From the NCBI RefSeq assembly GCF_016026235.1, contig NZ_CP065613.1: a DNA stretch of 64,000 nt. One strand, 5' to 3'. This stretch comes from Escherichia coli. GTDB lineage: Bacteria; Pseudomonadota; Gammaproteobacteria; Enterobacterales; Enterobacteriaceae. The translations under genes and the position numbers were made by a program. The stretch's first letter is position 1, and each line of letters begins with the position of its first letter. Below the pieces are notes generated by a model that saw only the letters and a list, made by a program, of their open reading frames with translations, had not been told where the DNA came from and ran no database searches. Positions 1 through 62,011 of this stretch are shown here, in pieces.

Positions 1-132
1 TGCAATAATGAAATAAGAGCAAACGAAGAAACTTTCAGAATTAGTCCCGGCGGCGCAGAAAATTTTGCTATTCGCCTCGCAAGAACGGAGAGCCGTCGAT
101 TGACACTAAGGGCGGAGTGACATAATTTCAGG

Positions 133-282
133 AGTGAGGGTTAGGGAGAGGTTTCCCCCTCCCCCTGGTGTTCTTAGTAAGCCTGGAAGCTAATCACTAA
201 GAGTATCACCAGTATGATGACGTGCTTCATCATAACCCTTTCCTTATTAAAAGCCCTCTTCTCCGGGAGAGGCTTTCCCGTT
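133..282 (+). ncRNA. sibA: SibA-like antisense antitoxin sRNA (type I TA), approximate ends
   Basis: Sigma70-like promoter TTGACA (100-105) and CATAAT (121-126); transcript fully overlaps the opposite-strand 19-codon ibs ORF; ends at hairpin CCTCTTC-TCCG-GGGAGAGG with U-rich tail (~253-282); ~250-bp paralogous repeat of 1788-1990. Confidence 0.5.
174..233 (-). CDS. ibsA: Ibs-family small hydrophobic type I toxin (19 aa, MMKHVIILVILLVISFQAY)
   Basis: Own translation of minus strand; ATG-ATG start with GGAAAGGG SD-like sequence; embedded antisense inside the Sib repeat; resembles K-12 IbsA from memory. Confidence 0.55.
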   Translation of the reverse strand: MMKHVIILVILLVISFQAY

Positions 283-492: not shown

Positions 493-1787
493 CTGAGGAA
501 TCCCCAGAAAACAAGACAGGCATAGTGAGATGTGATCTAATTGATTGTGCTAACAATTTCAAGGAGATCACCACTATGCCTGCACGTTCATTATGCCAAA
601 ATTTCCTTAACAACATACTGGCCCCTTTGCATCTTTACCGTCAAAAATCACTGATTGACGCAACTAATGCTGTAATAAATGGCGCTTCCCTCACACTTAC
701 CAGTATCGGGCGTCATTTAACCGGTACGGCATCAGTTAAAAACAAAATAAAGCGGGTGGATCGACTGTTGGGGAATCGACATTTGCAAAATGAGGTTTCC
801 ACCATTTTTCAGCGAATTACCCAAAAGATTACGCGGGGAATGTCTCGTGTTGTGATACTCATTGACTGGAGTGCTTATCATGCCTCTCGTTTTCAGCTTT
901 TGCGGGCAAGCCTGGCATGTGACGGGCGTTCTTTACCGTTGATGAGTTGTGTCGTTCCATCATCACAGACAGCGAATGCAGATGTACATGAGCGTTTTCT
1001 GGAATCGCTTGCTGAGTGCTTTTCCCCCGGGACTGATGTCATTGTTATTACAGATGCCGGTTTTCAGGGGCGATGGTTCCAACAGCTCCGCTCCCGTGGC
1101 TGGACCTATATTTGCCGGGTACTGGGCAATCATTATTACAATGTTGGTAATGGCTGGGAAAAGGTGTCGGACTCAGGCACAAAAGCATCAACGACAGCAA
1201 TTTATTTAGGTGAAGGCCTGCTGGGTCGAGATAAAAATGCACAACATGAAGGGCATTTTTATCTTTATAAAAGTAAGCCTAAAGGTCGTAGATTTAAACG
1301 CTCGAAGGAAAGAGCAACCAGACCATCGGTGACGGCTAAAGCTCGTACTGCCGGGAAATCACCATGGTTTATTTTCACAAACAGTACTGAGTTCTCGCCA
1401 AAACAGGTAATGAAATTATACAGCCGTAGAATGCAAATTGAGCAAAATTTCAGGGATGAAAAAAATCCTCGCTGGGGATTTGGACTACGGTTTGGTGCCA
1501 GTCATTCATCCGGGCGGGTCACGGTATTGAGTCTGATCGCAACATTAGCCAGTATCATTATGTGGTTAAGCGGTTTCAGTCTGGAAAACAAAGGGATACA
1601 TCATAAATATCAGGCAAATACAGTGAAGCACAGGCGAGTCATCTCGTTATTAAAACTGGCGGAGAATGTGATTCGACATTCTCCACTCATACTAAACACA
1701 CTGTCACTTGACGCAGGGCTGAAAGTTCTACAGCAACGGTATACCAATATGATAATGGTTTACTAAATTTTCTGGGGATCCCTCAGG
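493..1787 (+). mobile_element. IS10-like IS4-family insertion sequence, copy 1 (1295 bp)
   Basis: Imperfect terminal inverted repeats CTGAGGAATCCCCAGAAAAC (left) and CCTGAGGGATCCCCAGAAAA (right, reverse complement); 9-bp target site duplication GGTTTCCCC at 484-492 and 1788-1796; single transposase ORF. Confidence 0.85.
525..1766 (+). CDS. IS4-family (IS10-like) DDE transposase
   Basis: ORF track 413 aa; motifs KRVDRLLGNRHLQNE and FQANTVKHRRV align with IS10 transposase (KRIDRLLGNRHL, FQANTVRNRNV) from memory; GTG start at 525, alternative ATG at 573 (MPARS) gives an IS10-like length of 397 aa. Confidence 0.8.
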   Translation: MRCDLIDCANNFKEITTMPARSLCQNFLNNILAPLHLYRQKSLIDATNAVINGASLTLTSIGRHLTGTASVKNKIKRVDRLLGNRHLQNEVSTIFQRITQKITRGMSRVVILIDWSAYHASRFQLLRASLACDGRSLPLMSCVVPSSQTANADVHERFLESLAECFSPGTDVIVITDAGFQGRWFQQLRSRGWTYICRVLGNHYYNVGNGWEKVSDSGTKASTTAIYLGEGLLGRDKNAQHEGHFYLYKSKPKGRRFKRSKERATRPSVTAKARTAGKSPWFIFTNSTEFSPKQVMKLYSRRMQIEQNFRDEKNPRWGFGLRFGASHSSGRVTVLSLIATLASIIMWLSGFSLENKGIHHKYQANTVKHRRVISLLKLAENVIRHSPLILNTLSLDAGLKVLQQRYTNMIMVY

Positions 1788-1935
1788 GGTTTCCCCCGCC
1801 CTGGTAGCCTTAGTAAGCTGGCCAGCTAATGACTAAGAGCACCACGATGATGAGTAGCTTCATCATGACCCTTTCCTTATTTATGGCCCCTTCCTCGGGA
1901 GGGGCTTTCCCGTTTCAGCGTCCCGCTGAAATCGG
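1788..1935 (+). ncRNA. sibB: SibB-like antitoxin sRNA, 3' portion only; promoter and first ~25 nt (435-492) separated by the IS at 493-1787
   Basis: Sequence 468-492 plus 1797-1935 aligns colinearly with the sibA repeat (133-282); promoter TTGACA 435-440 and CATACT 456-461; terminator hairpin CCCCTTCC-TCGG-GAGGGG ~1888-1925. Confidence 0.5.
1810..1866 (-). CDS. ibsB: Ibs-family small hydrophobic type I toxin (18 aa, MMKLLIIVVLLVISWPAY)
   Basis: Own translation of minus strand; same context as ibsA in the second Sib repeat; ORF intact. Confidence 0.55.
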   Translation of the reverse strand: MMKLLIIVVLLVISWPAY

Positions 1936-17355: not shown

Positions 17356-17439
17356 TTAATTTCGATTATTTTTCCCGGATGGAAAATTCTTAGAAACCGA
17401 TCACATACAGCTGCATTTATTAAGGTTATCATCCGTTTC

Positions 17440-17526
17440 GCTGAAAAACATAACCCATAAAATGCTAGCTGTACCAGGAACCACCTCCTTAGCCTGTGTA
17501 ATCTCCCTTACACGGGCTTATTTTTT
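17440..17526 (+). ncRNA. cyaR: CyaR (RyeE) Hfq-dependent sRNA
   Basis: 87-nt match to remembered CyaR sequence GCUGAAAAACAUAACCCAUAAAAUGCUAGCUGUACCAGGAACCACCUCCUUAGCCUGUGUAAUCUCCCUUACACGGGCUUAUUUUUU, ending in a terminator hairpin and T-run. Confidence 0.85.
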
Positions 17527-35044: not shown

Positions 35045-35185
35045 CTCCTGCCATAACGTGAAGAAGCAATGACCTGGTGGTCCGTGACTTCCCTACGCTG
35101 GCATTATCCAGATCAGGTAATACGGGTATTTCTCAGCCTTCACGCAGAAGGGCACCCCGAGTCGTTTGGTTGCGATGATAAATCG
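35045..35185 (-). promoter_or_regulatory. TPP (thi-box) riboswitch in the thiM leader
   Basis: Minus strand contains CTGGGGTGCCCTTCTGCGTGAAGGCTGAGAAATACCCGTATCACCTGATCTGGATAATGCCAGCGTAGGGAA, the canonical thiM riboswitch core as I recall it. Confidence 0.7.
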
Positions 35186-58700: not shown

Positions 58701-59358
58701 CCCGCGTCTTGAAGCTGCCCTACGTACCACCCGACGCTGGTCGCTGGCAGATTTTCATTCTCTGTTTGTTAATCATCCCTTTACCCGTCTGGTTACCCAG
58801 CGATTAATATGGGGGGTTTATCCGGCAAATGAACCGCGTTGTTTACTCAACGCCTTTCGTGTGGCCGCAGAGGGGGAGTTCTGCAATGCGCAAGATGAGC
58901 CAATTGACCTGCCTGCGGACACTCTGATTGGCATTGCCCACCCGTTAGAAATGACAGCAGAAATGCGCAGTGAATTTGCACAGCTTTTTGCCGATTACGA
59001 AATTATGCCGCCTTTTCGCCAGTTGTCGCGCCGCACGGTGCTGCTCACACCTGACGAGTCAACCAGTAACAGCCTGACTCGCTGGGAAGGTAAATCCGCT
59101 ACCGTTGGGCAACTTATGGGAATGCGATACAAAGGCTGGGAGTCAGGCTATGAGGACGCATTTGTCTATGACCTGGGTGAGTACCGGCTGGTCCTTAAGT
59201 TTTCACCCGGTTTTAACCACTACAATGTTGATAGCAAAGCGCTAATGAGCTTCCGTTCTCTTCGAGTGTACCGTGACAATAAATCCGTCACTTTTGCCGA
59301 ACTTGATGTGTTTGATTTGAGTGAGGCGTTAAGCGCACCTGACGTCATTTTCCATTAA
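55726..59358 (+). CDS. yehI: YehI (DUF4132-type giant protein, 1210 aa), third paralog, lacking the N-terminal WGR segment
   Basis: ORF track; N-terminus aligns with paralog A/B residues after the WGR segment; the C-terminal half repeats the same module. Confidence 0.85.
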   Translation: MDKELPWLADNAQLELKYKKGKTPLSHRNWPGEPVPVITESIIQTLGDELLQKAEKKKNIVWRYENFLLEWQSAITQAINLIGEHKPSIPARTMAALACIAQNDSQQLLDEIVQQEGLEYATDVVMARQCIARRYESDSLVVTLQYQDEDYGYGYGSATYNDFDLRLRKHLSLAEESCWQRCADKLIAALPGIPKIRRPFIALILPEKPEIANELASLESSRSSLHSKEWLKVVATDNTAVKKLERYWGLDVFSDREASYMSQKNHFGYAACAALLREQGLAAIPRLAMYAHKEDCGSLLVQINHPQVIHTLLLVADKNKPSLQRVAKYSKNFPHATLAALAELLALKEPPARPGYPIIEDKKLPAQQKARDEYWRTLLQTLMASQPQLAEEVMQWLSTQARAVLNSYLLAPPKPVIDGTDNSNLPEILVSPPWRSKKKMTAPRLDLAPLELTPQVYWQPGEQERLASTESARYFSTESLAERMEQKSGRVVLQELGFGDDVWLFLNYILPGKLDAARNSLIVQWHYYQGRVEEILNGWNSPEAQLAEQALRSGHIEALINIWENDNYSRYRPEKSVWNLYLLAQLPREMALTFWLRINEKKHLFAGEDYFLSILGLDALPGLMLAFSHRTKETFPLILNFGATELALPVARVWRRFAVQRDLARQWILHWPEHTATALIPLVFTKSSDNSEAALLALRLLYEHGHGELLQTVANRWQRKDVWPALEQLLKQGPMDIYPARIPKAPDFWHPAMWSRPRLITNNQPVTDDALEIIGEMLRFTQGGRFYSGLEQLKTFCQPQTLAAFAWDLFTAWQQAGAPAKDNWAFLALSLFGDESTARDLTTQILAWPQEGKSARAVIGLNILTLMNNDMALIQLHHVSQRAKSSSLRENAAEFLQVVAENRGLSQEELADRLVPTLGLDDPQALIFDFGPRQFTVRFDENLNPVIFDQQNVRQKSVPRLRADDDQLKAPEALARLKGLKKDATQVSKNLLPRLEAALRTTRRWSLADFHSLFVNHPFTRLVTQRLIWGVYPANEPRCLLNAFRVAAEGEFCNAQDEPIDLPADTLIGIAHPLEMTAEMRSEFAQLFADYEIMPPFRQLSRRTVLLTPDESTSNSLTRWEGKSATVGQLMGMRYKGWESGYEDAFVYDLGEYRLVLKFSPGFNHYNVDSKALMSFRSLRVYRDNKSVTFAELDVFDLSEALSAPDVIFH

Positions 59359-59418
59359 AACACAGCGGGCAGTGATGCAACTGCCCGTTATTAACACGAC
59401 TTACCAGCGGGGAAAGCG

Positions 59419-59739
59419 ATGATCGTGCAAAAAGAGCTGGTTGCTATTTACGATTATGAGGTCCCTGTACCTGAAGATCCGTTTTCCTTCAGACTTGAGA
59501 TCCATAAATGCTCTGAATTATTTACAGGTTCCGTCTATCGACTGGAGCGATTCCGGCTACATCCAACATTTCATCAACGTGATCGAGAAGATGCTGACCC
59601 GCTAATAAATGATGCGTTGATTTATATAAGAGATGAGTGTATTGATGAGCGGAAATTACGAGGTGAATCACCTGAAACTGTAATAGCAATTTTTAATCGT
59701 GAACTACAGAATATATTCATCCAACAAATAGAAAAATAG
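59419..59739 (+). CDS. yehK: YehK (106 aa)
   Basis: ORF track; recognised. Confidence 0.8.
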   Translation: MIVQKELVAIYDYEVPVPEDPFSFRLEIHKCSELFTGSVYRLERFRLHPTFHQRDREDADPLINDALIYIRDECIDERKLRGESPETVIAIFNRELQNIFIQQIEK

Positions 59740-59792
59740 CTTTATTAAAGGGGGAAACGGTATTCCCCCTTAGATGCGTTTCAATTTGCCCG

Positions 59793-59882
59793 TTACTTCA
59801 ACAAATCAATCAACCGTAACAGAGCCACTAATAACTCCAGTACGGCAATGAGCACGATTAACTTTTGTGTCAGCGTGTCCAT
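59793..59882 (-). CDS. zorO: Type I toxin, ZorO-like (29 aa, MDTLTQKLIVLIAVLELLVALLRLIDLLK)
   Basis: Own translation; AAGGAG SD 5 nt upstream of the ATG; single predicted TM helix; matches my recollection of the Zor toxins of E. coli O157:H7. Confidence 0.7.
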   Translation of the reverse strand: MDTLTQKLIVLIAVLELLVALLRLIDLLK

Positions 59883-60063
59883 CCGCTCTCCTTATTAAGG
59901 AGCGCAACACCAGCACCTTACCCTTACACTGCCTGTCGATACTGGTTTACGTATGTTGGTACGAAACGTTGCTCTCCGGATCAGAGCACCGCCTGCGGCA
60001 CCACCCGTCCAGCAGCCAGGACTTAAAATTGGTCCGATCCGGCACAACCTCCCAACGGGCAGG

Positions 60064-60114
60064 ATTATAAATCTCATTCACTGAATTGCAATGGAGTGTG
60101 GATATGGTTATAAT
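60064..60114 (+). promoter_or_regulatory. Back-to-back promoters for zor (minus strand) and orz (plus strand) sharing a palindromic -35 hexamer, unit 1
   Basis: Plus strand: TTGCAA (60086-60091), 17 bp, TATAAT (60109-60114). Minus strand: the same TTGCAA, 16 bp, TATAAT (complement of 60064-60069). Confidence 0.6.
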
Positions 60115-60120
60115 TTATTC

Positions 60121-60203
60121 GTTGGTACGAAATGTTGCACAATCAGCAAGTTAGCGTCACTGTAGTAAATAAAAGAACCTGCCTCACCAGCAGGTTTTTT
60201 TAT
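60121..60203 (+). ncRNA. orzO: OrzO-like antitoxin sRNA (~83 nt)
   Basis: Predicted TSS 7 nt after the -10; 5' end GUUGGUACGAAAUGUUGC is complementary (one G-U) to the zor 5' UTR at 59955-59972; ends at terminator CCTGCCTCACCAGCAGG plus T7. Confidence 0.65.
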
Positions 60204-60400
60204 TTTCTGCGATCTACTTTCCAGATATTTTTTGCCAATAGCCCACCATAAATATTCACATCCCGGTCAAATGGTGCGTTGAATATAAAATCGATGAACT
60301 TATAAATAAACATGAGTTATATGATGAATTAATAAAAACAGTAATCATTTTATTAAAGGGGGAAGCGGTTTTCCCCCTTAGATGCGTTTCAATTTGCCCG

Positions 60401-60490
60401 TTACTTCAACAAATCAATCAACTGTAACAGAGCTACTAATAGCTCCAGTACAGCAATGAGCACGGTTAACTTTTGTGTCAGCGTGTCCAT
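60401..60490 (-). CDS. zorP: Type I toxin, ZorP-like (29 aa, MDTLTQKLTVLIAVLELLVALLQLIDLLK)
   Basis: Own translation of the second repeat unit; 2 aa differences from unit 1 (I9T, R23Q). Confidence 0.7.
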   Translation of the reverse strand: MDTLTQKLTVLIAVLELLVALLQLIDLLK

Positions 60491-60671
60491 CCGCTCTCCT
60501 TATTAAGGAGCGCAACACCAGCACCTTACCCTTACACTGCCTGTCGATACTGGTTTACGTATGTTGGACCACGATGTTGCACTCCGGATCAGGGCACCAC
60601 CTGCAGCACCACCCGTCCGGTAGCCAGGACTTGAAATAGGTTCGATCCGGCGCAACGTCCCAACGGTCTGG

Positions 60672-60722
60672 ATTATAAATCTCATTATCTTAATTGCAAC
60701 GGGGTCCAGCCATGGTTATAAT
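60672..60722 (+). promoter_or_regulatory. Back-to-back zor/orz promoters sharing the palindromic -35, unit 2
   Basis: TTGCAA 60694-60699; plus-strand -10 TATAAT 60717-60722; minus-strand -10 is the complement of 60672-60677. Confidence 0.6.
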
Positions 60723-60728
60723 TCGTTC

Positions 60729-60811
60729 GTTGGAACACGATGTTGCACAGGCTGTGGTGTTAGGCCTGAAAATAGTAAATAAAAGAACCTGCCTCACCAG
60801 CAGGTTTTTTT
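60729..60811 (+). ncRNA. orzP: OrzP-like antitoxin sRNA (~83 nt)
   Basis: 5' end GUUGGAACACGAUGUUGCAC pairs with the unit-2 UTR at 60563-60582 (one mismatch); terminator CCTGCCTCACCAGCAGG plus T7. Confidence 0.65.
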
Positions 60812-60922
60812 ATTTACTGTGATCTGCTTTCCAGATATTTTTCGCTCAAACAACTAATGCGCCAAACATTTATTGCGCGTAAAATATCGTTTATTTCATT
60901 AATACATTTCAGGGATGAATAT

Positions 60923-62011
60923 ATGTCACCGCAGAATAATCATCTGCAGCGTCCGCCTGCTGCTGTGTTATACGCCGATGAACTGGCAAAATTAAAACAA
61001 AATGATAACGCACCTTGCCCGCCCGGTTGGCAGTTAAGTTTGCCTGCGGCCCGTGCTTTTATCCTTGGCGATAGCGCGCAAAATATTAGCCGTAAAGTGG
61101 TGATTAGTCCCTCCGCTGTCGAACGTATGTTAGTCACTCTTGCCACCGGACGCGGTTTGATGTTGGTGGGGGAACCTGGCACCGCAAAATCTCTCCTGTC
61201 TGAATTACTGGCAACCGCTATTAGCGGCGATGCCGGGTTAACCGTCCAGGGCGGCGCATCTACTACCGAAGATCAAATCAAGTACGGCTGGAACTACGCC
61301 CTGCTTATCAATCATGGTCCATCAACGGAAGCGCTGGTCCCTGCCCCGCTTTACCAGGGAATGCGCGACGGCAAAATCGTCCGTTTTGAAGAGATAACGC
61401 GTACACCGCTGGAAGTGCAAGACTGTCTGTTAGGCATGCTTTCTGACAGGGTGATGACGGTGCCGGAACTCACTGGTGAAGCCAGTCAGCTCTATGCGCG
61501 AGAAGGCTTTAATATTATTGCCACTGCCAATACCCGCGATCGCGGCGTCAATGAAATGAGTGCTGCGCTAAAGCGTCGCTTCGATTTTGAAACTGTCTTT
61601 CCGATTATGGATTTCGCCCAGGAGCTGGAGCTTGTCGCCAGTGCTTCGGCGCGTTTGCTGGCCCATAGCGGTATTCCGCATAAAGTGCCTGACGCGGTAC
61701 TGGAGTTACTGGTCCGCACCTTCCGCGATCTGCGTGCCAACGGCGAAAAGAAAACGTCAATGGATACACTAACAGCGATTATGTCCACGGCTGAAGCCGT
61801 GAACGTGGCCCACGCCGTGGGCGTCCGCGCCTGGTTTTTAGCGAATCGCGCGGGGGAGCCTGCCGACCTGGTGGACTGTATTGCCGGAACCATCGTCAAA
61901 GATAACGAAGAAGATCGCGCTCGTCTGCGCCGTTACTTCGAACAGCGTGTCGCCACACATAAAGAAGCTCACTGGCAGGCTTATTATCAAGCCCGCCACC
62001 GCCTGCCGTGA
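60923..62011 (+). CDS. yehL: MoxR-family AAA+ ATPase YehL (362 aa)
   Basis: ORF track 60857-62011; start trimmed to MSPQNNHLQ; Walker A GEPGTAKS. Confidence 0.85.
   Translation: MSPQNNHLQRPPAAVLYADELAKLKQNDNAPCPPGWQLSLPAARAFILGDSAQNISRKVVISPSAVERMLVTLATGRGLMLVGEPGTAKSLLSELLATAISGDAGLTVQGGASTTEDQIKYGWNYALLINHGPSTEALVPAPLYQGMRDGKIVRFEEITRTPLEVQDCLLGMLSDRVMTVPELTGEASQLYAREGFNIIATANTRDRGVNEMSAALKRRFDFETVFPIMDFAQELELVASASARLLAHSGIPHKVPDAVLELLVRTFRDLRANGEKKTSMDTLTAIMSTAEAVNVAHAVGVRAWFLANRAGEPADLVDCIAGTIVKDNEEDRARLRRYFEQRVATHKEAHWQAYYQARHRLP

What the first reader, a model, noticed from the sequence alone, without database searches (positions are those of the whole stretch)
59741..60842. Tandemly duplicated Zor/Orz-like type I toxin-antitoxin locus between yehK and yehL
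Two ~495-bp direct repeats each contain a 29-aa hydrophobic toxin ORF on the minus strand (AAGGAG SD), a ~175-nt toxin 5' UTR, and a divergent ~83-nt sRNA ending in a strong intrinsic terminator. The sRNA is not antisense-overlapping; instead its 5' end repeats an 18-20-nt box that lies inside the toxin UTR (unit 1: 60121-60140 vs 59955-59972; unit 2: 60729-60748 vs 60563-60582). The boxes differ between units at several positions, so each sRNA should pair only with its cognate toxin mRNA. As I recall, this locus is absent from K-12 and was described in E. coli O157:H7 as zorO-orzO / zorP-orzP.
Basis: partly seen in the sequence, partly recalled or inferred. Interest (0 to 1): 0.8.

Follow-up and report, generated by a model that had tools for sequence, protein, structure and literature searches.

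The report
Known zor-orz toxin-antitoxin tandem pair

Summary
Window 59741-60845 holds two repeat units with a 608-610 bp period. Each unit has a 29-aa hydrophobic ORF on the minus strand with an AAGGAG RBS and a 174-nt 5' UTR. Each also has a divergent sRNA of about 83-85 nt ending in a terminator.

Both sRNAs score above Rfam's gathering threshold for OrzO-P (RF02083: 88.8 and 99.9 bits, threshold 60). The peptides differ by one residue from UniProt ZorO. The layout between yehK and yehL matches E. coli O157:H7.

Unit 1 is zorO/orzO (V1 = GAA) and unit 2 is zorP/orzP (V1 = ACG). Cognate sRNA-UTR duplexes are predicted at -31.3 and -32.7 kcal/mol, swapped pairs at -23.1 and -18.9. Only the cognate pairs meet the published pairing threshold.

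- K-12 is not empty here. It keeps an intact orzP gene, published as OrzPmg.
- The pairing includes a G·U wobble (unit 1) or one mismatch (unit 2).
- The duplication also carried the tail of yehK.

The only strain-specific feature is a pair of minority toxin alleles, ZorO T9I and an R23Q copy at the zorP position. Their toxicity is untested. Novelty: already known. Interest: low.

The parts
59748..59771 (-). zorO transcription terminator hairpin (GGGGGAAUACCGUUUCCCCC followed by UUUAAUAAA on the minus strand). It lies just after the yehK stop, so it probably serves both genes.
   Evidence: Palindrome seen. Hairpin at the 3' end of the mRNA fold.
59793..59882 (-). zorO ORF, 29 aa, MDTLTQKLIVLIAVLELLVALLRLIDLLK (ZorO with T9I)
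   Evidence: 28/29 identical to ZORO_ECO57. The exact ORF occurs in 53 complete-genome records.
59888..59893 (-). zorO ribosome-binding site AAGGAG (+164..+169), in the hairpin CUCCUUAAUAAGGAG
   Evidence: Same numbering as PMC5397157.
59883..60056 (-). zorO 5' UTR, 174 nt. +1..+28 (60029-60056) is the leader removed by processing in EDL933. +73..+102 (59955-59984) is the EAP / putative ribosome standby region.
   Evidence: Promoter position. Fold pairs +1..+24 with +72..+102. Literature.
59955..59972 (-). OrzO target site in the zorO UTR (+85..+102)
   Evidence: 18 bp continuous including one G·U.
60064..60091 (-). zorO promoter (-35 TTGCAA, 16-nt spacer, -10 TATAAT)
60086..60114 (+). orzO promoter (-35 TTGCAA, shared as a palindrome with the zorO promoter; 17-nt spacer; -10 TATAAT)
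60121..60203 (+). orzO antitoxin sRNA, about 81-83 nt. The 5' 18 nt pair with the zorO UTR; V1 = GAA; intrinsic terminator at 60176-60196 followed by a T run.
   Evidence: Rfam RF02083, 88.8 bits at 60128-60201. Fold.
60269..60297 (+). Decayed copy of the yehK 3' end (matches 59607-59636) inside the inter-unit spacer 60236-60348. It marks the original extent of the duplication.
   Evidence: Local score 28 against shuffles 17.8 +/- 2.3; 1 of 500 shuffles reached it.
60356..60379 (-). zorP terminator hairpin
60401..60490 (-). zorP-position ORF, 29 aa, MDTLTQKLTVLIAVLELLVALLQLIDLLK (T3 as in ZorO, plus R23Q)
   Evidence: The exact ORF occurs in 37 complete-genome records.
60496..60501 (-). zorP ribosome-binding site AAGGAG
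60491..60664 (-). zorP 5' UTR, 174 nt
60563..60582 (-). OrzP target site in the zorP UTR (+83..+102). Pairing is 6 bp, one mismatch, 13 bp.
60672..60699 (-). zorP promoter
60694..60722 (+). orzP promoter (shares the -35 palindrome)
60729..60813 (+). orzP antitoxin sRNA, about 83-85 nt; V1 = ACG
   Evidence: Rfam RF02083, 99.9 bits at 60736-60811. Fold.
59419..59739 (+). yehK (left flank)
   Evidence: RefSeq annotation of homologous loci.
60923..62011 (+). yehL, AAA-type ATPase (right flank)

Best explanation
This is the chromosomal zor-orz type I toxin-antitoxin locus of Escherichia in its common two-copy form, zorO-orzO followed by zorP-orzP, between yehK and yehL.

How each unit works:
1. 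A minus-strand mRNA is made with a 174-nt leader and a 29-codon ORF for a small inner-membrane peptide.
2. In the full-length mRNA, the first ~24 nt pair with +72..+102 and the RBS sits in a hairpin, so translation is poor.
3. Removal of the first 28 nt exposes +73..+102 (the EAP / putative ribosome standby region) and boosts translation.
4. The divergently transcribed ~83-nt Orz sRNA pairs through its first 18-20 nt with +83/85..+102. This blocks the region and triggers RNase III-dependent decay, so the toxin is not made.
5. The two units differ mainly in the core of the pairing box, so each sRNA controls only its own mRNA.

Basis for each step. Shown here: sequence homology, element positions, predicted pairing and predicted folds. 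Taken from experiments on EDL933 in the literature: toxicity, rescue by the sRNA, RNase III dependence, 5' processing and the standby role. Inferred: that these properties hold for this strain's alleles (ZorO T9I and the R23Q copy).
For: - Rfam RF02083 OrzO-P hits at 60128-60201 (88.8 bits) and 60736-60811 (99.9 bits); the gathering score is 60.
- Alignment with O157:H7 strain Z1831 shows the same yehK-zorO-orzO-zorP-orzP-yehL order and identical pairing boxes.
- The peptides are 28/29 identical to 'Small toxic protein ZorO' ZORO_ECO57.
- The four promoter-like sites have the exact hexamers reported as 99-100% conserved in zor/orz: TTGCAA and TATAAT (PMC11264685).
- With the transcription start at 60056/60664, the RBS falls at +164..+169 and the target at +85..+102, as published.
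- The predicted fold pairs the leader with +72..+102 in every allele examined.
- Duplex energies are -31.3 and -32.7 kcal/mol for cognate pairs, and -23.1 and -18.9 for swapped pairs.
- Cognate pairing is 18 continuous bp, or 19 bp with one mismatch. This is above the published threshold of 15 continuous, or 17 with one mismatch. Swapped pairs give at most 9 continuous bp with two gaps.
- The sRNA box and its target co-vary across O, P and Q alleles in 12 other Escherichia genomes.
- Experimental basis: PMC2887945 (northern blots, primer extension, toxicity), PMC3919570 (rescue, RNase III, V1 specificity), PMC5397157 (UTR mechanism).
Against: - Nothing in the sequence contradicts this reading.
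- No expression or toxicity data exist for this particular strain.
- The two toxin alleles are minority variants. R23 is a residue where one substitution (R23L) abolishes toxicity while another (R23E) does not, so the unit-2 peptide may be weakened.
- The physiological role of the locus is unsettled in the literature. An aminoglycoside-tolerance effect persists with the non-toxic R23L mutant.
- NCBIfam has no model for the peptide, and RefSeq annotates nothing at the locus. The assignment therefore rests on Rfam, UniProt names and direct alignment.
Confidence: 0.95

Rival explanations
1. The locus is the zor-orz locus, but one or both toxin genes in this strain are attenuated natural alleles (T9I in unit 1, R23Q in unit 2). 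The unit would then act mainly as an RNA pair or a weak membrane peptide, not a growth-arresting toxin.
For: - R23 lies in the predicted membrane-spanning segment, and R23L abolishes toxicity, depolarisation and ATP loss (PMC9860968).
- The R23Q and T9I alleles are in the minority: 217 and 74 contigs, against at least 1000 for canonical ZorO.
- The exact ORFs occur in 37 and 53 of about 3,390 records that carry zor.
Against: - R23E stays toxic, as do K7Q, K29Q and E16Q, so loss of charge at one position need not remove activity.
- T9I is a conservative change inside the hydrophobic helix.
- All regulatory elements and both antitoxins are intact and at full pairing strength. That is expected if the toxins still need to be repressed.
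Confidence: 0.2
2. The Orz sRNAs have a job of their own, regulating other mRNAs in trans, and toxin repression is only part of what the locus does.
For: - orz is found in 5232 of 5426 complete E. coli genomes, but the zor ORF in only 3387.
- K-12 keeps an intact, promoter-bearing orzP without any toxin, and it is expressed (PMC11264685).
- The orz terminator half is 41/41 identical between the two units.
Against: - No other site in the 64-kb window matches either 5' box at up to 3 mismatches.
- No other target has been reported in the papers read.
- Retention of orz alone could simply be the trace of a deletion that is only tolerated if the toxin goes first.
Confidence: 0.2
3. The repeats are not a gene system at all. 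They would be a repetitive intergenic element or a pair of transcription-attenuator leaders, and the 29-codon ORFs would be chance.
For: - Weak sub-threshold Rfam hits to Thr and Trp leaders and to STnc370 overlap the sRNA terminators.
- RefSeq annotates nothing at the locus.
Against: - Those hits score 22-32 bits against gathering scores of 41-55, and they rest on the terminator hairpin alone.
- OrzO-P scores 89-100 bits.
- The ORF is kept at 29 codons with at most one or two substitutions across Escherichia species.
- Toxicity and sRNA expression were shown experimentally.
Confidence: 0.01

Closest known systems
zorO-orzO / zorP-orzP of E. coli O157:H7 EDL933 (Fozo 2010, PMC2887945; Wen 2014, PMC3919570; Wen 2017, PMC5397157; PMC11264685, 2024)
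   Same: - Same chromosomal site and the same order of two units.
- Identical sRNA 5' boxes and target boxes.
- Identical promoter hexamers, RBS and UTR length.
- The sRNAs match Rfam OrzO-P.
   Different: - Toxin alleles: unit 1 has T9I. Unit 2 has T3 rather than the S3 of EDL933 ZorP, plus R23Q.
- This window lacks a 52-bp segment that O157 carries between yehK and zorO.
- About 5% scattered nucleotide differences overall.
tisB-istR1 (E. coli)
   Same: - A divergent, non-overlapping sRNA.
- A long, structured toxin 5' UTR.
- 5' processing that exposes an upstream standby region, which is also the sRNA target.
- RNase III cleavage.
   Different: - No sequence similarity.
- tisB is under LexA (SOS) control and is single-copy.
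[quoted passage not shown]
shoB-ohsC (E. coli)
   Same: A small hydrophobic toxin with a divergently encoded sRNA that pairs with the 5' UTR.
   Different: A different peptide family (26 aa), single-copy, at a different locus.
ibs-sib (E. coli; two Sib RNAs lie in this same window at 100-248 and 1749-1881)
   Same: Tandemly repeated type I toxin-antitoxin units, in which sequence divergence insulates each sRNA to its own toxin mRNA.
   Different: Sib RNAs are true cis-antisense transcripts that overlap the whole ibs ORF. Orz is encoded divergently and pairs over only 18-20 nt.
OrzPmg, the orz-only locus of E. coli K-12 (PMC11264685)
   Same: The same orzP gene, promoters and terminator as unit 2 of the window.
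   Different: The toxin ORF and the target box are deleted in K-12. Only about 30 nt of the zor leader remain.

Membership tests
zor-orz type I toxin-antitoxin family | 29-aa hydrophobic peptide homologous to ZorO/ZorP | tested here: met
   Both ORFs are 29 aa and 28/29 identical to ZORO_ECO57, with 18-19 of 29 residues L/I/V/A.
zor-orz type I toxin-antitoxin family | Divergently encoded sRNA matching the Rfam OrzO-P covariance model (RF02083) above the gathering score | tested here: met
   88.8 and 99.9 bits against a gathering score of 60, full model length 1-76.
zor-orz type I toxin-antitoxin family | The sRNA 5' end is complementary to the toxin 5' UTR with at least 15 continuous bp, or at least 17 bp with one mismatch (functional threshold from Wen 2014) | tested here: met
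   Unit 1: 18 continuous bp including one G·U. Unit 2: 6 bp, one mismatch, 13 bp. Predicted dG -31.3 and -32.7 kcal/mol. Threshold quoted.
zor-orz type I toxin-antitoxin family | Discrimination between the paralogous units through the V1 triplet (GAA in OrzO, ACG in OrzP) | tested here: met
   V1 is GAA in unit 1 and ACG in unit 2. Swapped duplexes are weaker by 8-14 kcal/mol and fall below the pairing threshold. Actual discrimination in cells was not testable.
zor-orz type I toxin-antitoxin family | 174-nt 5' UTR with the RBS at +164..+169 in a stem, and an EAP region at +73..+102 sequestered by the 5' leader | tested here: met
   Positions coincide exactly. The minimum-free-energy fold pairs +1..+24 with +72..+102 and puts the RBS in a hairpin. 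This is prediction only; there is no structure probing for this strain.
zor-orz type I toxin-antitoxin family | Promoters with -35 TTGCAA and -10 TATAAT for both genes | tested here: met
   Four sites, all 10 of 12 matches to consensus, at the expected positions.
zor-orz type I toxin-antitoxin family | Chromosomal position between yehK and yehL | tested here: met
   The flanking ORFs align with annotated yehK and yehL in eight RefSeq genomes.
zor-orz type I toxin-antitoxin family | Overexpressed peptide is toxic (growth stasis, depolarisation, ATP loss); the sRNA rescues; repression depends on RNase III | not testable with these tools
   Shown for the EDL933 alleles only. The T9I and R23Q alleles have not been tested.
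zor-orz type I toxin-antitoxin family | Both RNAs are transcribed from the predicted start sites | not testable with these tools
   Primer extension and northern blots exist for EDL933, and for OrzPmg in MG1655. There are none for this strain.

The most novel reading that the evidence does not exclude
Two small points are not excluded by my evidence, and I did not find either stated in the papers I read.

(a) The natural R23Q allele at the zorP position, and perhaps ZorO T9I, may be a naturally attenuated toxin that a minority lineage keeps under full antitoxin control.

(b) The first 13 nt of every zor mRNA (GUUGG-N3-GUUGY) resemble a shortened Orz 5' end. They are predicted to occupy the constant flanks of the Orz target in cis. 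This would explain why allelic variation is confined to the 8-nt core of the box, and it would make the sRNA a trans-acting counterpart of the mRNA's own inhibitory leader.
Probability: 0.2. Interest if true: 0.3.

Novelty: already known. Interest (0 to 1): 0.1.

Why it matters
It matters little beyond correct annotation. The locus has been characterised experimentally since 2010 and surveyed across more than 2,000 E. coli genomes in 2024.

- Annotation gap: RefSeq/PGAP annotates nothing here, NCBIfam has no model for the peptide, and one public source labels the R23Q peptide 'TisB'. A scan that recognises the locus from raw sequence fills that gap.
- Strain-specific alleles: T9I and R23Q are natural variants. 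R23 is a residue already shown to separate toxicity from the aminoglycoside-tolerance effect, so the R23Q allele could serve as a natural test case.

Tried and rejected
1. NCBIfam scan of both peptides found no family. The 29-aa peptides are too short or not modelled, so identity was established by alignment and exact look-up instead.
2. Sub-threshold Rfam hits to STnc370, Thr leader and Trp leader were rejected. They rest on the terminator hairpin only and score far below the gathering thresholds.
3. I asked whether orz arose by inverted duplication of the zor promoter and leader around the palindromic -35. Alignment of the two arms, with the hexamers held fixed, gave 17 of 1000 shuffles (unit 1) and 113 of 1000 (unit 2) reaching the observed score. 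The shared GUUGG...GUUG motif is explained just as well by both RNAs pairing with the same site. The idea is not supported.
4. A scan of one genome per species (100,044 species) with the 25-nt orz terminator gave three loci, all in Escherichia (E. whittamii, Escherichia sp. E1V33, Escherichia sp. MOD1-EC7003). There is no sign of the locus outside the genus at exact-match level. Divergent copies would have been missed.
5. One look-up used a wrong PMC id recalled from memory. The correct Fozo 2010 paper was then found by search.
6. No structure prediction or deep protein searches were run. They could not add to a one-residue difference from a named UniProt entry.

Full report
**1. What is in the sequence**

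Window 59741-60845 contains two direct repeat units with a period of 608-610 bp.
- 59723-60022 matches 60331-60630 (300 nt, 91%).
- 60163-60235 matches 60773-60845 (73 nt, 95%).
- A global alignment shows that the units are collinear from the toxin terminator to about 30 nt past the sRNA terminator.

Each unit carries a 29-codon ORF on the minus strand:
- 59793-59882, MDTLTQKLIVLIAVLELLVALLRLIDLLK;
- 60401-60490, MDTLTQKLTVLIAVLELLVALLQLIDLLK.

Both peptides are 18-19/29 L/I/V/A. Each ORF is preceded by AAGGAG.

A consensus promoter scan of 59300-61000 returned four sites. All four belong to the locus. They form two back-to-back pairs that share a palindromic -35 hexamer TTGCAA (60086-60091 and 60694-60699), each with a TATAAT -10. 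These promoters place the sRNA starts at about 60121 and 60729 and the toxin mRNA starts at about 60056 and 60664. The leaders are therefore 174 nt.

In 64 kb, each sRNA 5' box finds only itself and its cognate UTR site at up to 3 mismatches, against 0.04 and 0.00 matches expected by chance.

**2. What it is**

Several independent lines identify the locus.
- Rfam: the OrzO-P antitoxin family (RF02083) matches 60128-60201 at 88.8 bits and 60736-60811 at 99.9 bits. The gathering score is 60 and the full model length is matched.
- Distribution: megablast against 5,426 complete E. coli genomes finds part of the region in 5,232 of them.
- Synteny: in E. coli O157:H7 strain Z1831 the match lies between annotated yehK and yehL, with yehI upstream and yehM downstream. 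The alignment shows the same two units in the same order.
- Unit assignment: Wen et al. 2014 define the V1 triplet as GAA in OrzO and ACG in OrzP (PMC3919570). Window unit 1 has GAA and unit 2 has ACG. So unit 1 is zorO-orzO and unit 2 is zorP-orzP.
- Peptide names: an exact look-up shows that MDTLTQKLTVLIAVLELLVALLRLIDLLK is 'Small toxic protein ZorO' (ZORO_ECO57) and the T3S form is ZorP (ZORP_ECO57). The window peptides differ from ZorO by T9I (unit 1) and R23Q (unit 2).

**3. How it works**

The positions fit the published model exactly. With +1 at 60056, the RBS is at +164..+169 and the sRNA target at +85..+102. That lies inside the EAP region, +73..+102, of Wen et al. 2017 (PMC5397157).

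The minimum-free-energy fold of the full-length mRNA pairs +1..+24 with +72..+102 and puts the RBS in the hairpin CUCCUUAAUAAGGAG. This holds for both units and for every other allele I examined. This is a prediction. It agrees with the published probing, in which the first 28 nt protect the EAP region and their removal raises translation.

Duplex predictions for the sRNA 5' 20 nt against the UTRs:

| sRNA | zorO UTR | zorP UTR |
|---|---|---|
| OrzO | -31.3 kcal/mol | -23.1 kcal/mol |
| OrzP | -18.9 kcal/mol | -32.7 kcal/mol |

Cognate pairing is 18 continuous bp with one G·U in unit 1, and 6 bp, one mismatch, 13 bp in unit 2. Swapped pairs have at most 9 continuous bp and two internal gaps. 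The experimentally defined requirement is 15 continuous bp, or 17 bp with one mismatch. Only the cognate pairs qualify. This agrees with the published failure of OrzP to rescue zorO.

Toxicity, rescue, RNase III dependence and processing are taken from the literature on the EDL933 alleles. That they apply to this strain is an inference.

**4. Evidence from related sequences**

I compared the window with nine other E. coli genomes and three other Escherichia species.
- The sRNA box and the UTR box change together across three allele classes: O (GGTACGAAA), P (GGA[A/C]CACGA) and Q (AG[A/T][T/C]GCCA).
- The flanks GTTG... and ...GTTGC stay constant.
- One divergent single-copy strain, TUM13066, still keeps 19 of 20 pairs.
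- E. whittamii carries the O+P tandem, so the duplication is old or mobile within the genus.

A scan of one genome per species with the orz terminator returned only Escherichia.

Within the window, divergence between the two units is mosaic:

| Segment | Identity between units |
|---|---|
| 72 nt between RBS and box | 72/72 |
| Rest of the EAP region | 10/10 |
| sRNA 3' half with terminator | 41/41 |
| Target box | 13/20 |
| sRNA box | 16/20 |
| sRNA middle | 11/24 |

This pattern fits selection for insulation at the pairing core and constraint, or gene conversion, elsewhere.

**5.

- K-12 is not empty at this site. Strain MC1061 keeps both promoters, a complete orzP identical in its 5' box, and about 30 nt of the zor leader. 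The ORF and the target box are deleted. This is the published OrzPmg. About 30% of E. coli genomes are orz-only (PMC11264685). My counts agree: orz in 5232 genomes and the zor ORF in 3387, out of 5426.
- The pairing is not a perfect repeat (see section 3).
- The spacer between the units (60236-60348) contains a decayed copy of the yehK 3' end: 60269-60297 matches 59607-59636. The local score is 28 against 17.8 +/- 2.3 in shuffles, and 1 of 500 shuffles reached it. The original duplication therefore spanned about 640 bp, including the tail of yehK.

**6. What is specific to this window**

The whole 1,102-bp haplotype is at least 99% identical in only 24 records. The best match is porcine ETEC strain UMNF18 at 99.9%.

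The exact T9I ORF occurs in 53 records and the exact R23Q ORF in 37. In the large protein collection the two peptides are seen on 74 and 217 contigs. Canonical ZorO is seen on at least 1000 and ZorP on 457.

R23 is one of the charged residues studied by Bogati et al. R23L abolishes toxicity yet keeps the kanamycin growth benefit, while R23E stays toxic. R23Q was not tested (PMC9860968). Whether the unit-2 peptide is fully toxic therefore cannot be decided here.

**7. A side observation**

Every zor mRNA begins GUUGG-N3-GUUG(U/C). In the predicted fold these bases pair with the constant flanks of the Orz target: +98..+102 and +85..+89. The mRNA's own leader thus resembles a shortened Orz.

This is a corollary of the published EAP model, and I did not find it stated in the text I read. 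I tested whether it reflects an inverted duplication around the shared -35. The support is weak: 17 of 1000 and 113 of 1000 shuffles reached the observed score. I do not claim it.

**8. Verdict**

This is a textbook-level known system, described in 2010, dissected in 2014-2022 and surveyed across E. coli in 2024. Novelty: already known. Interest: 0.1. The only open points are the functional state of two minority toxin alleles and the general, still unsettled, physiological role of zor-orz.

Noticed in passing
L002 (E. coli K-12 MC1061) 2487-2792, homologous to window 60637-60922: K-12 keeps a complete orzP gene with both divergent promoters and about 30 nt of the zor leader. The toxin ORF and the target box are deleted. 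This matches the published OrzPmg / orz-only class, so 'absent from K-12' is only half true.
   Followed up: yes
window 60236-60348 (core 60269-60297 vs 59607-59636): The spacer between the two units holds a decayed copy of the yehK 3' end, with a deletion of about 54 bp. The ancestral duplication therefore included the tail of yehK. This remnant has diverged far more than the zor-orz parts.
   Followed up: partly
window 60044-60056 and 60652-60664 (minus strand, mRNA +1..+13): The zor mRNAs start with GUUGG-N3-GUUG(U/C), which resembles the Orz 5' end. These bases are predicted to pair in cis with the constant flanks of the Orz target. That could explain why allelic variation is confined to the box core.
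   Followed up: partly
window 59883-59954 vs 60491-60562; 60163-60203 vs 60773-60813: Divergence between the units is mosaic. Some segments are 100% identical (72 nt between RBS and box; 41 nt of sRNA 3' half). They sit next to segments at 46-80% identity (pairing boxes, sRNA middle).
   Followed up: partly
window 60735 / 60569; Q-type alleles in L005-L008: In P-type and Q-type units, sRNA position 7 is always mismatched with its own target (A opposite G or A). O-type units pair there. The mismatch appeared in all 10 P- and Q-type units examined.
   Followed up: no
window 100-248 and 1749-1881 (+): Two Sib antitoxin RNAs (Rfam RF00113, 149.5 and 72.3 bits). This is presumably the sibA/ibsA-sibB/ibsB tandem type I toxin-antitoxin pair. 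The second copy scores much lower than the first.
   Followed up: no
window 17438-17523 (+); 35073-35169 (-): CyaR/RyeE sRNA (100.7 bits) and a TPP riboswitch (71.6 bits). Both are ordinary E. coli features that help place the window on the chromosome.
   Followed up: no
L001 (O157:H7 Z1831) about 2455-2506, between yehK and zorO: O157 carries about 52 bp after the yehK stop that the window lacks. K-12 keeps only the first 11 bp of it.
   Followed up: no
L003, L006, L007 (ETEC4077, MEI148-20EC, FY10), locus positions 2180-2533 or 280-633: In some strains the yehK reading frame is 354 nt, is annotated 'hypothetical protein', and runs into the zor terminator region. Elsewhere it is 318-321 nt.
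   Followed up: no
public annotation of the locus: RefSeq/PGAP annotates no feature under zor-orz in most genomes listed. NCBIfam has no model for the peptide. One UniRef entry names the R23Q peptide 'toxin TisB', which is a mislabel.
   Followed up: partly
window 60141-60206 (+): A sub-threshold Rfam hit to the Salmonella sRNA STnc370 (32 bits, gathering score 54), driven by a very similar terminator (AACCUGCC...GCAGGUU). I did not check whether STnc370 is related to Orz.
   Followed up: no
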